Position numbers: made by a program
From: Syntrophorhabdaceae bacterium
GTDB taxonomy: Bacteria > Desulfobacterota > Syntrophorhabdia > Syntrophorhabdales > Syntrophorhabdaceae
Direction: 5' to 3'
NCBI GenBank assembly: GCA_963666485.2
Contig: CAXXUO010000001.1
Location: forward strand, 672,001-736,000
DNA: 64,000 bases
In this document: positions 36,001 to 39,000 of the stretch, piece by piece
Numbering within the stretch: the first letter of the stretch is position 1
Layout: every line of letters begins with the position of its first letter

Positions 36001-39000
36001 CACGAAGCCGACTATTTCATTTTCGATACCGGGCATTCTTCTTTGGTATTCCCCAGCCTGTTTGCTTCTACGAACCGAGGATAGTTTGTATGACCCCGGC
36101 GATCTCGGCGCAATGGCTCTCGGTGACCTCGTTTGTCGGGCCTTCGACCATGACCCGGCACATGTTCTGCGTACCGGAATAACGGACGAGAACGCGGCCG
36201 TCTTCGCCAAGCTCGCTCTCGATGCGCTCGATGACCGCCATCACGTCCGGCAGGGTCTTGATGTCGGGTTTTCGCCTGACATTCACGTTTATCAATTTCT
36301 GGGGATATATGTCCATGAGGTCGGCGAGCTCCGACAGGCGCTTGCCGGACCTGACCATGCAGGCGACGAGCTGCAGTGCCGTTATTATCCCGTCCCCCGT
36401 CGTGTGGTGGTCGAGGAATATCATGTGGCCCGACTCCTCACCCCCGATGACCCCGCCAAGCCGCAGCATGTCCTCGAGCACGTACCGGTCTCCGACCTTT
36501 GCCGCGTGATACGCATAACCATGTTTTGAGCACGCGACGCGAAGGCCGAGATTGCTCATGACCGTGCCGACAACCATATTGTTCTTCAGTCTGCCCCCGT
36601 CGGCCAGCATTTTCGCGCAGATGAAGAGGATCCGGTCCCCTGTTATCTCCCTGCCTTTTTCGTCAATGGCGATAAGCCGGTCCCCGTCGCCGTCGAAGGC
36701 GAGCCCGATCGACGCGCCCGTTGCAAGCACCTTTTCTTTCAGGTCCTGCGTATGCTGTGAGCCGCATCTGTCGTTTATGTTGATGCCGTTCGGGTTGTTG
36801 TGGATAACGTCGATATCGGCGCCGAGTTCCCAGAACGTCTCGGGGGCGACCTTGTACGTGGCGCCGTTCGAGGCGTCTATGACTATCTTCATGCCCTCGA
36901 TCGAAAGGTCCCGCGGGAAGCTGTTCTTGAGAAAGACAATATAGCGGCCGTGCACGTCGTCGAGGCGGAACGCCTGTCCCATGTCGTGAACGGGCGGTAC
37001 GAGCTTGTGCAGGGTATTGCTCATCATCAGTTCCTCGATCGCTTCTTCCTGCTCGTCGGACAGCTTGAACCCGTTGCCGGAGAAGATCTTGATCCCGTTG
37101 TCCTGGTACGGGTTGTGCGATGCGGAGATGACGATGCCCGCGTCCGCCCGCATGCTGTGAGCGATAAAGGCGATACCCGGCGTCGGGAGGACGCCGAGCA
37201 TGTACGGGTTCCCGCCCATGGACGTGATGCCCGACTCGAGGGCGCCTTCAAGCATATAGCCTGAAATGCGCGTATCTTTCCCGATCACCACCCTCGGGCG
37301 ATCGTGTGTTTTTTTGAGGATATAGACCATCGCCTGCCCGATCGCGAAGGCGATCTCGGCATTCATGGGATAGCGGTTGGCCTCGCCGCGCACCCCGTCC
37401 GTTCCAAAAAGTTTTCCCATCATTCAACCCCGTTTATCTTCTATGGTATCCCTATTATACCAAAAACGGCAGCGTTCATGCCACCTTCGTACGGCGGGCG
37501 CCTATCTGAAAATAGCGAGCGACGGCGTGATGGCGCGTACCCTTGCGCAATACTCATCGACGATGCCTTGCAGCCAGTTTGTCCCGGCATCGCATGCCGC
37601 TTTATCGAGGCCCTTGATCGCCGCTACATAGGGAAGTGTCTTATGTGTTGTGCCCGAAAAGAGGGACAGGAAGGCATCGCGGCTGGCATTAATGGCGCCG
37701 TCATCAAGCCCCGAGCTGAAAAGGGACCGTATCCCGGCGAATCTCTCGTAGAACTCCTGCTTCCCGGCCGATCTTTTTGCCGAAGATGCGACGGCCTTTT
37801 CGGCGAGCATCTCGAGGCGCTTTAAGCGCTCATCCCGGGCAAGCCCGATTTTTTCGATGAGCCCGGAATAGATGAGATCACCGAACTCCCCGCGTTCGAG
37901 AAACGGGCGCCTCACGTGGCTGTACCATTCTTCGAGTGCCTTCAGGTTCGCGATATACACGATATTGTTCTCGACGATCCGGCTTATATTCGGATAGTCG
38001 TGCCGCTTGATGTCCATGACCATTGCCGTGTGCGTTTTCCCGATGATGAGCTTGTTCTCGGCGAGGTAATCGTTCCTGATCACCGAATTTGCCGAGACCA
38101 CGTTCCCGTACCCCATCCGGACAGGGCCCACCATGCCTCCCTGGCCGCCGAGAAATATCGCAGGCTGGTTGAGCATGACGCCGCGGGGGACATCCCCGAT
38201 CAGTGACGGCGTGGTCTTGTCGCCGTCCGGCGTGAAATTGAAATGGATATACGAGCTGCCTACCTCGCTGTGGTCCTTCCTGCTCGTCCCGCCCGCCATC
38301 AGGCAGTCGCAGAAATTTATGAGGCTCCCGAGTGTAACAAAAGGGAACAGTATCGTCTGCTTGATCCCGACGCAATGCGCGCCGCTCGCTTCCTCCTCGA
38401 GTATGCACCCTTCCCGCACATGCGCGCCCAAGCCCATCGATGACTTCTCGAGGAATACGGACCCGCTGAAGAATCCCCCTTTGAGCTCCACGGCGCGGCC
38501 GAGCTGGCAATTATCTATGGTTGCGGGACCCTCGTACCCTATCTGAGCACCCGACGATATGACCGTGTTCGCGCCGTATATCCTCGAGCCCGGATAGATC
38601 CTGACGCCGTCGCCCGATATGCGATCGATATCGACCTCATCACCGATATCGATCGTGAGCGGGCTCGTCATGACGACGCCTTTCTCGATCAACTGCACAA
38701 TTTTATCGTAACATCGAGGCTGAAGGTCCATTCTCGATCACCTCCGGGTCTTGACGATGGGTCGGATTGCGGGACATCGGGTCACAATCAGGTAAACCTG
38801 ATGAAAATAATAACCGTAATCTCGCACCTTTGCAATATAATACAATCGCCGCCCGCATAGCCTTTGTGGTACAATTACACGGTTTCTGACATGTTAATAT
38901 CCTTCGCGAAATGTAAACGGCTTACGGCGTACGGCGTACGGCGTACGGTCTGCGGTTCACTCCTTGCTCCTTGCTCCTTGCTCCTTACGGTCTTCTAATG

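What a model noticed while it worked through the whole genome (the two positions that open the first line are those of the whole stretch)
36068..38731. Split GlmU: truncated uridyltransferase plus a new glmM-linked beta-helix protein, candidate for the missing GlcN-1-P ac [...]
The glmU gene beside glmS (g02275, C3:369891-370886) stops at 331 aa and lacks the acetyltransferase end. A separate family-less 409-aa protein (g00677), directly upstream of glmM, carries the GlmU-like acetyltransferase region plus a new helical C-terminus, and across the order it occurs where GlmU is truncated, so it is the likely stand-alone glucosamine-1-phosphate acetyltransferase.
Evidence so far: NCBIfam: g02275 covers GlmU model 2-327 of 452; g00677 covers 243-447 (E 6e-13). 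In 31 order genomes: of 19 with g00677, 18 have short GlmU (frames 332-407 aa) and 1 full; of 11 without it that have glmU, 10 are full length (450+) and 1 is 392 aa. glmM directly downstream in 18 of 19 loci. 969 homologues at E<=1e-150, many labelled 'bifunctional GlmU' by sources. A NagU/UAP1-type uridyltransferase (g02386) is also present.
(Added by a program. Inside this text positions count along the whole contig: contig position 672,001 is position 1 of the stretch shown here. "Call 12" and the like, gene names such as g00115 and contig names such as C1 are that model's own, and its searches are not shown. The text may have been shortened before it was handed on; [...] marks where a part breaks off. 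The agent that wrote the report below was given it as the finding of a first reader that could run no searches.)

Follow-up and report, generated by a model that had tools for sequence, protein, structure and literature searches.

The report
Stand-in for GlmU's lost acetyltransferase half
This gene most likely encodes an undescribed stand-alone enzyme for the acetylation step in making the bacterial cell-wall sugar UDP-GlcNAc, used by many environmental bacteria whose normal two-part enzyme GlmU has lost that half.

Summary
Confirmed and strengthened. The 409-aa gene before glmM has the fold of GlmU's acetyltransferase half (Z 22) plus an unmatched helical domain. The genome's GlmU ends at residue 331, and no other GlmU-type acetyltransferase was found.

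New evidence:
(1) In 146 genomes of one phylum, 141 carry exactly one of canonical GlmU half, this family, or an archaeal-type stand-alone half (shuffled mean 75).
(2) Two other phyla repeat this: 20 of 22 and 5 of 6 carriers lack the half, against 0 of 99 and 2 of 135 non-carriers.
(3) 39 Rokubacteria-type proteins fuse truncated GlmU to this domain.
(4) Truncation arose repeatedly (at least 6 forced changes).

Correction: 29 of 35 carriers in the order have short GlmU; 6 keep it whole. Arg333, Lys351, Asn386 and Lys392 are invariant, but His363, Glu349, Tyr366 and Asn377 are replaced, so catalysis must differ. Activity and trimer are untested. This scan reached the same reading earlier on other genomes (e1-5160608, e1-2447435).

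The parts
37502..38731 (-). 409-aa GlmU-derived protein (P0001), proposed stand-alone glucosamine-1-phosphate N-acetyltransferase
38036..38719 (-). Residues 5-232: N-terminal helix and left-handed beta-helix matching GlmU 237-439
   Evidence: VIA-align Z 22.3, rmsd 1.4, 202 residues aligned to 1hm0_A; hhalign probability 99.6
38216..38416 (-). Residues 106-172: proposed active-site rungs. R106, K124, S136, N139, E156, S159, N165 and K172 are invariant; H119, C141, D142, H154 and H163 are kept in at least 90%
37529..37987 (-). Residues 249-401: all-helical C-terminal domain with invariant R274 and R302 and conserved W269/Y270, in place of GlmU's short tail
   Evidence: pLDDT 94 when folded alone; best Z 7.4, within background; conservation
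38740..38745 (-). GGAGGT ribosome-binding-site-like motif before the ATG
   Evidence: sequence
37424..37501 (-). 78-nt gap with a weak hairpin plus T-run and a TGGTATAAT motif; function not shown
   Evidence: 1 terminator-like site, 3.4 expected by chance
36068..37423 (-). glmM, phosphoglucosamine mutase, the genome's only close copy. Its predicted partners, truncated glmU and glmS, lie outside the window at C3:369891-370886 and just downstream
   Evidence: for glmU and glmS

Best explanation
The protein acetylates glucosamine-1-phosphate, most likely with acetyl-CoA. GlmS makes GlcN-6-P, the adjacent GlmM converts it to GlcN-1-P, this enzyme makes GlcNAc-1-P, and the 331-aa GlmU uridylylates it. 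It descends from GlmU's C-terminal half, gained a helical domain and rebuilt its catalytic centre. It spreads between phyla together with a glmM, and once it is present the host's GlmU tends to lose its own acetyltransferase half. SHOWN here: gene layout, predicted fold, conserved residues, distribution, fusion, repeated truncation. INFERRED: substrate, acyl donor, trimer, horizontal spread, order of events, and that His119 (one rung above GlmU's His363 site, now Ser136), His154 or Glu156 supplies the base.
For: Fold: every Foldseek row shown down to rank 35 is GlmU; VIA-align Z 22 for GlmU against 18.7 for the next family. Residues: R106, K124, N165 and K172 are invariant in 84 of 84 and map to GlmU R333, K351, N386 and K392, invariant in 19 of 19 canonical GlmUs; their role in binding the sugar phosphate is recalled, not from a call. 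Need: the genome has LpxA and LpxD, and its other Hexapep proteins get other best names; no TIGR03991 match and no archaeal C-terminal half. E. coli GlmU cut at 331 has only uridyltransferase activity (PMC4358021 passages), and 29 of 29 short GlmUs keep all 8 uridyltransferase motifs. Complementarity: 141 of 146 genomes have exactly one of three types, shuffled mean 75, maximum 96; of 58 without the canonical half, 22 have this family, 34 the archaeal-type half and none both. Second phylum: 20 of 22 carriers against 0 of 99 non-carriers lack the half. Third: 5 of 6 against 2 of 135. Fusion: 39 proteins of 740-760 aa plus a divergent one; one of 2 fused loci shows a glmS start right behind it. 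Tree: the short state needs 10 changes, at least 6 forced, and full-length carriers sit beside short carriers in two genera. glmM is adjacent in 78 of 80 loci, and 3 of 80 also hold glmS and a glmU match.
Against: The canonical His363/Glu349 pair, Tyr366, Asn377 and Ser405 are all replaced. The register placing Ser136 at His363 is best over residues 99-145 (22.3 against -11.3) but ranks only third over 125-145, and HMMER aligns this stretch differently. His119 is absent in 5 of 84 members, His154 in 3, His163 in 8. Carriers with intact GlmU exist: 6 of 35, 1 of 23, 2 of 22 and 1 of 6, and 4 of 10 hand-picked loci from varied lineages (three of those counts share genomes). Genomes are MAGs and kin are not independent. 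GNAT-fold acetyltransferases were not surveyed. There is no assay.
Confidence: 0.87

Rival explanations
1. Eukaryote-like order: the protein acetylates glucosamine-6-phosphate, and its companion GlmM is really a GlcNAc-phosphate mutase.
For: It sits before, and travels with, a distinct GlmM type (median 71% identity across lineages, against 51-53% for 8 of 9 non-carriers checked). The sugar-contact residues Tyr366 and Asn377 have changed. A giant GlmS-like gene is a neighbour in 25 of 80 loci.
Against: G006 has this GlmM type (70%) as its only match, with a full GlmU and no family gene. Five of 5 carriers with full GlmU have a single glmM. The mutase motifs are GlmM-like. The family alternates with an archaeal-type GlmU half.
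Confidence: 0.06
2. The protein is a non-catalytic partner or regulator of GlmM; acetylation is done by an unrecognised enzyme, or GlcNAc is salvaged.
For: The canonical catalytic His is lost; it is tightly linked to glmM; it has a large new helical domain; GlmU without its acetyltransferase half goes with GlcNAc auxotrophy in Capnocytophaga (PMC4358021 passages).
Against: This does not explain the mutual exclusion with two other acetyltransferase types, the fusion in place of GlmU's own domain, or the invariant polar residues on the active-site face.
Confidence: 0.04
3. It works only in a complex with truncated GlmU, whose remaining beta-helix rungs complete the active site.
For: Truncations in this order stop at 327-366 and keep the first rungs; fused forms exist.
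Against: Many carriers have GlmU matches ending near position 240, with no beta-helix (7 of 23; 11 of 22). The family carries its own full beta-helix.
Confidence: 0.02

Closest known systems
C-terminal acetyltransferase domain of bacterial GlmU (TIGR01173; PDB 2oi6, 1hm0, 4aa7)
   Same: N-terminal helix plus left-handed beta-helix (Z 22, rmsd 1.4 over 202 residues); R333, K351, D369, N386, K392 and A423 positions kept; same pathway slot.
   Different: Stand-alone; about 20% identity; H363, E349, Y366, N377 and S405 replaced; two inserted loops; a 150-residue helical domain in place of the tail; 48 bits against a cut-off of 367.
Archaeal bifunctional GlmU (TIGR03992; ST0452, PDB 5z09) and the stand-alone ~270-aa form of its C-terminal half found here
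   Same: Beta-helix (Z 14.4); the stand-alone form fills the same gap in other genomes of the phylum sample.
   Different: It visibly keeps the His-x-x-Tyr motif in 4 of 4 loci read, has no helical C-terminal domain, and did not co-occur with this family (0 of 146).
Canonical C-terminal-only GlmU noted with NagU (bioRxiv 10.64898/2026.06.23.733835, section 15)
   Same: Split pathway with a separate acetyltransferase gene.
   Different: Those are BLAST-detectable GlmU fragments. The preprint leaves an 'unidentified acetyltransferase' for species with only the N-terminal half. Whether its example species carries this family was not tested.
DUF4954/DUF6819 proteins (PF16314, PF20683)
   Same: Nearest named clusters by language-model features (0.87), some also with a GlmU-like hexapeptide match.
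   Different: No member of 84 matches either family at E<=0.1; a lead only.

Membership tests
Bifunctional GlmU (TIGR01173) | [quoted passage not shown] | tested here: not met
   Matches only 243-447; 48 against 367 bits. Both domains occur on one chain only in the fused forms.
GlmU acetyltransferase domain | Left-handed beta-helix preceded by the linker helix | tested here: met
GlmU acetyltransferase domain | Arg333, Lys351, Asn386, Lys392 (roles recalled) | tested here: met
   84 of 84 each, and 41 of 41 fused forms
GlmU acetyltransferase domain | Catalytic His363 with Glu349; Tyr366; Asn377 (roles recalled) | tested here: not met
   Ser136, Gly122, Asn139 and Glu156 in gap-free register; in HMMER's register the His falls on Phe140, so it is absent either way
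GlmU acetyltransferase domain | Homotrimer with active sites between subunits (PMC10087520 section 4.2) | not tested
   No complex prediction was obtained
GlmU acetyltransferase domain | GlcN-1-P N-acetyltransferase activity | not testable with these tools
   Needs an assay
Archaeal GlmU (TIGR03992) / alt_bact_glmU (TIGR03991) | Profile match | tested here: not met
   Not among the 11 families at E<=0.01; no match at this locus
DUF4954 (PF16314) | Profile match | tested here: not met
   0 of 84 members; 0 of 146 genomes including 23 carriers
Any solved fold (C-terminal helical domain) | Structural match above background | tested here: inconclusive
   Best Z 7.4, and no Foldseek hit at E<=0.001
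GlmM (TIGR01455), neighbour gene | Score above cut-off; SASHN and GGExSGH motifs | tested here: met

The most novel reading that the evidence does not exclude
A widespread further family of glucosamine-1-phosphate acetyltransferases that does GlmU's reaction with a rebuilt catalytic centre: no His363/Glu349 pair, and a base supplied from another rung or loop (His119, His154 or Glu156, near a conserved Cys141). A new helical domain would take over CoA binding or dock GlmM. It moves as a two-gene cassette and has repeatedly displaced an essential enzyme half in at least four phyla.
Probability: 0.6. Interest if true: 0.8.

Novelty: new variant of a known kind. Interest (0 to 1): 0.7.

Why it matters
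GlcN-1-P acetylation is an essential step towards peptidoglycan and lipid A and is usually credited to bifunctional GlmU. A 2026 preprint states that an unidentified acetyltransferase must exist where GlmU keeps only its N-terminal half. This analysis names two candidates that account for 56 of 58 such gaps in one phylum sample, and both can be tested by simple complementation. The family has no Pfam model, and sources label members 'bifunctional GlmU' or 'pyrophosphorylase' although they lack that domain. If it is active, it shows the same reaction on the same fold without the canonical catalytic histidine.

Tried and rejected
Assembly error or frameshift in glmU: rejected, because glmS starts 20 nt after the stop and the same 331-aa end recurs in G025 and G049.

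NagU as obligatory partner: rejected, 7 of 23 carriers against 12 of 123 non-carriers.

Apparent counter-examples (23 short GlmUs without the family): resolved. Five tested have no weak family member, and all 23 carry the archaeal-type half; their glmU neighbourhoods showed nothing relevant.

G051 and G057, flagged with internal stops, are intact 448-aa GlmUs and were counted against the hypothesis.

The GlmM fusion P0274 and GalK fusion P0275 were given no weight: one cluster each, with linkers that look like read-through.

Fold searches of the C-terminal domain found nothing above background. Membership in DUF4954 was not supported. The promoter and terminator scan was at chance level.

No trimer or partner prediction was obtained, so oligomeric state is open. 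Five paper searches for GlmU or ST0452 active-site residues gave no usable paper, so residue roles are recalled. A word search of earlier scan notes for the fusion found none. Expression data were not examined.

Full report
OBSERVATION. The window holds a 409-aa ORF (37502-38731, minus; P0001) 78 nt upstream of a 451-aa glmM. P0001 has no Pfam match at E<=1 and matches TIGR01173 only over 243-447 (E 6e-13). The genome (99% complete) has one glmU, 331 aa, followed after 20 nt by glmS. All 8 uridyltransferase motifs I checked are present in it and in 29 of 29 short GlmUs. E. coli GlmU cut at 331 has uridyltransferase activity only (PMC4358021, passages). The genome encodes LpxA and LpxD above cut-off, so it needs UDP-GlcNAc. 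The 12 other ORFs behind its Hexapep matches get other best names, and neither TIGR03991 nor the C-terminal half of TIGR03992 matches. GNAT-fold enzymes were not surveyed. Named relatives point to Syntrophorhabdaceae; the taxon is inferred.

FAMILY AND FOLD. The family is large: 8000 of 8000 scored candidates (capped), 235 representatives at E<=1e-30, and at least 578 stretches in GTDB genomes. With an 84-sequence alignment the model reaches pLDDT 96.4. Residues 5-232 match GlmU 237-439 (Z 22.3, rmsd 1.4, 202 aligned), ahead of QdtC (18.7) and LpxD (18.1); the Foldseek rows shown down to rank 35 are all GlmU. Residues 249-401 form a helical domain that folds confidently alone (pLDDT 94) and has no match above background.

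ACTIVE SITE. In gap-free register with 19 canonical GlmUs (numbering from chain 2v0h), R106, K124, D142, N165, K172 and A214 match R333, K351, D369, N386, K392 and A423. The H363 position is an invariant Ser136, E349 is Gly122, Y366 is Asn139, N377 is Glu156 and S405 is Gly196. His119 (79 of 84) lies one rung above, at GlmU's Asn346; His154 is in 81, His163 in 76 and Cys141 in 83 of 84. This register wins clearly over residues 99-145 but not over 125-145 alone, so the Ser136 assignment is inferred. The roles of the GlmU residues are recalled; my searches found no readable paper for them.

DISTRIBUTION, ORDER. Of 61 genomes, 35 carry the family: 29 have short GlmU and 6 have intact GlmU. Of 26 non-carriers, 23 span the whole model, G021 is 392 aa, G012 is short (84% complete) and G036 has no match; none of these three showed the archaeal-type half. 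On a tree of 56 GlmU N-terminal parts (G020, G026, G036, G040 and G046 left out; G021 counted as full) the short state needs 10 changes, at least 6 forced by well-supported branches. In two genera full-length carriers sit beside short carriers, which fits gain of the family before loss (inferred, midpoint root only). End points differ, and G050, G224 and G248 show internal deletions of the core.

DISTRIBUTION, PHYLUM. I sampled 146 genomes around G061 (record title Desulfobacteraceae; at least 5 overlap the order sample; completeness was not reported). 88 have the canonical half and 23 this family. At first 23 short GlmUs lacked the family. These carry a ~270-aa protein whose tested example is closest to the C-terminal half of archaeal GlmU (E 3e-47). 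With three types, 141 of 146 genomes have exactly one (shuffled mean 75, maximum 96 in 20,000); 3 have two, 2 have none, and the two stand-alone types never co-occur. The 2 with none have longer TIGR03992-like matches that I did not resolve. Seven carriers have only a distant nucleotidyltransferase match or none and no NagU, so their uridyltransferase is unexplained.

DISTRIBUTION, OTHER PHYLA. In the class of G062 (title Thermoleophilia; 121 genomes, no completeness filter), 20 of 22 carriers and 0 of 99 non-carriers lack the half. In the phylum of G063 (title Myxococcales; 141 genomes), 5 of 6 carriers and 2 of 135 non-carriers lack it; of those two, one has an archaeal-type half and one match ends at a contig edge. 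Against the pattern, 4 of 10 hand-picked loci from varied lineages had full GlmU. Kin are not independent, so the P-values overstate.

FUSION. P0183 (750 aa) is GlmU 1-~330 followed by a complete family domain. One search lists 39 such proteins of 740-760 aa (one named Rokuibacteriota, a partial one Methylomirabilota) and a 760-aa form at 51%. The N-terminal part of P0183 is 77% identical to an ordinary full-length GlmU but 46% to that of the divergent fusion, which suggests the domain replaced the native half on two backbones. The 18 motif residues checked are kept in 41 of 41 fused or extended forms. In L124 a glmS start follows the fused gene; L123 ends too soon to tell. I could not check that these genomes lack a second glmU.

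CONTEXT. glmM follows in 78 of 80 loci; 3 loci also hold glmS and a glmU match; 25 have a giant GlmS-like neighbour, absent from this genome. The linked GlmM is a distinct type (median 71% identity). It also serves alone beside full GlmU in G006, which argues for an ordinary GlcN-phosphate mutase and against acetylation at the 6-phosphate stage.

LITERATURE. bioRxiv 10.64898/2026.06.23.733835 (abstract, sections 15 and 16 read; extended data and supplements not seen and may list relevant species) calls for an unidentified acetyltransferase where only N-terminal GlmU remains. PMC10087520 (passages and the first part of section 4) gives the trimer requirement. PMC7725333 (passages) notes a missing C-terminal half in Chlorobaculum limnaeum. 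Searches (listings only for the other papers) showed no description of this family; the library lacks most subscription journals. Earlier notes of this scan reached the same reading on other genomes. I saw them after stating my reading and do not count them as support.

VERDICT. The protein works like GlmU's acetyltransferase half (0.87) but is not a GlmU family member by domain content or catalytic residues. It is a new variant of a known kind, widespread and directly testable. Interest 0.7.

Noticed in passing
L227:1444-2265 (G098), L228-L230; 36 genomes: A second stand-alone candidate acetyltransferase of about 270 aa, like the C-terminal half of archaeal GlmU, in 34 of 36 genomes that lack both the canonical half and this family.
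   Followed up: partly
Control list: Bacteroides thetaiotaomicron rings for DUF4954 but not for glmU (E<=1e-24) or TIGR03991, and DUF4954 is the nearest named family to P0001 by features: a possible further stand-in in Bacteroidota.
   Followed up: partly
L087:1043-4765 and 24 other loci: A giant (~1250-aa) GlmS-like gene beside the family gene in 25 of 80 loci; not found in this genome.
   Followed up: no
G061, G074, G100, G106, G137, G168, G199: Carriers with only a distant or no GlmU N-terminal match and no NagU-class gene; their uridyltransferase is unexplained.
   Followed up: no
window 27427-29337 (+): 636-aa ORF joining an L,D-transpeptidase (YkuD) domain to a complete Mur ligase.
   Followed up: partly
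window 35122-36210 (-): ORF behind glmM with no Pfam match at E<=1e-4 and a nucleotidyltransferase-like DxD motif (motif reading recalled).
   Followed up: no
L288:1501-2847 (G006): Family-type glmM without the family gene, in a genome with full GlmU.
   Followed up: yes
L096:631-1908 and 5950-7254: Two copies of the family gene flanking a GlmS-like gene.
   Followed up: no
P0274, P0275, P0175: Single fusions of the family to GlmM and to a galactokinase (probably read-through), and a 583-aa form with an extra N-terminal beta-helix.
   Followed up: partly
G371, G375, G388, G393, G403, G428, G438, G448, G463, G473: Ten genomes of the G063 phylum have only the C-terminal canonical GlmU half at E<=1e-24, the opposite split.
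   Followed up: no
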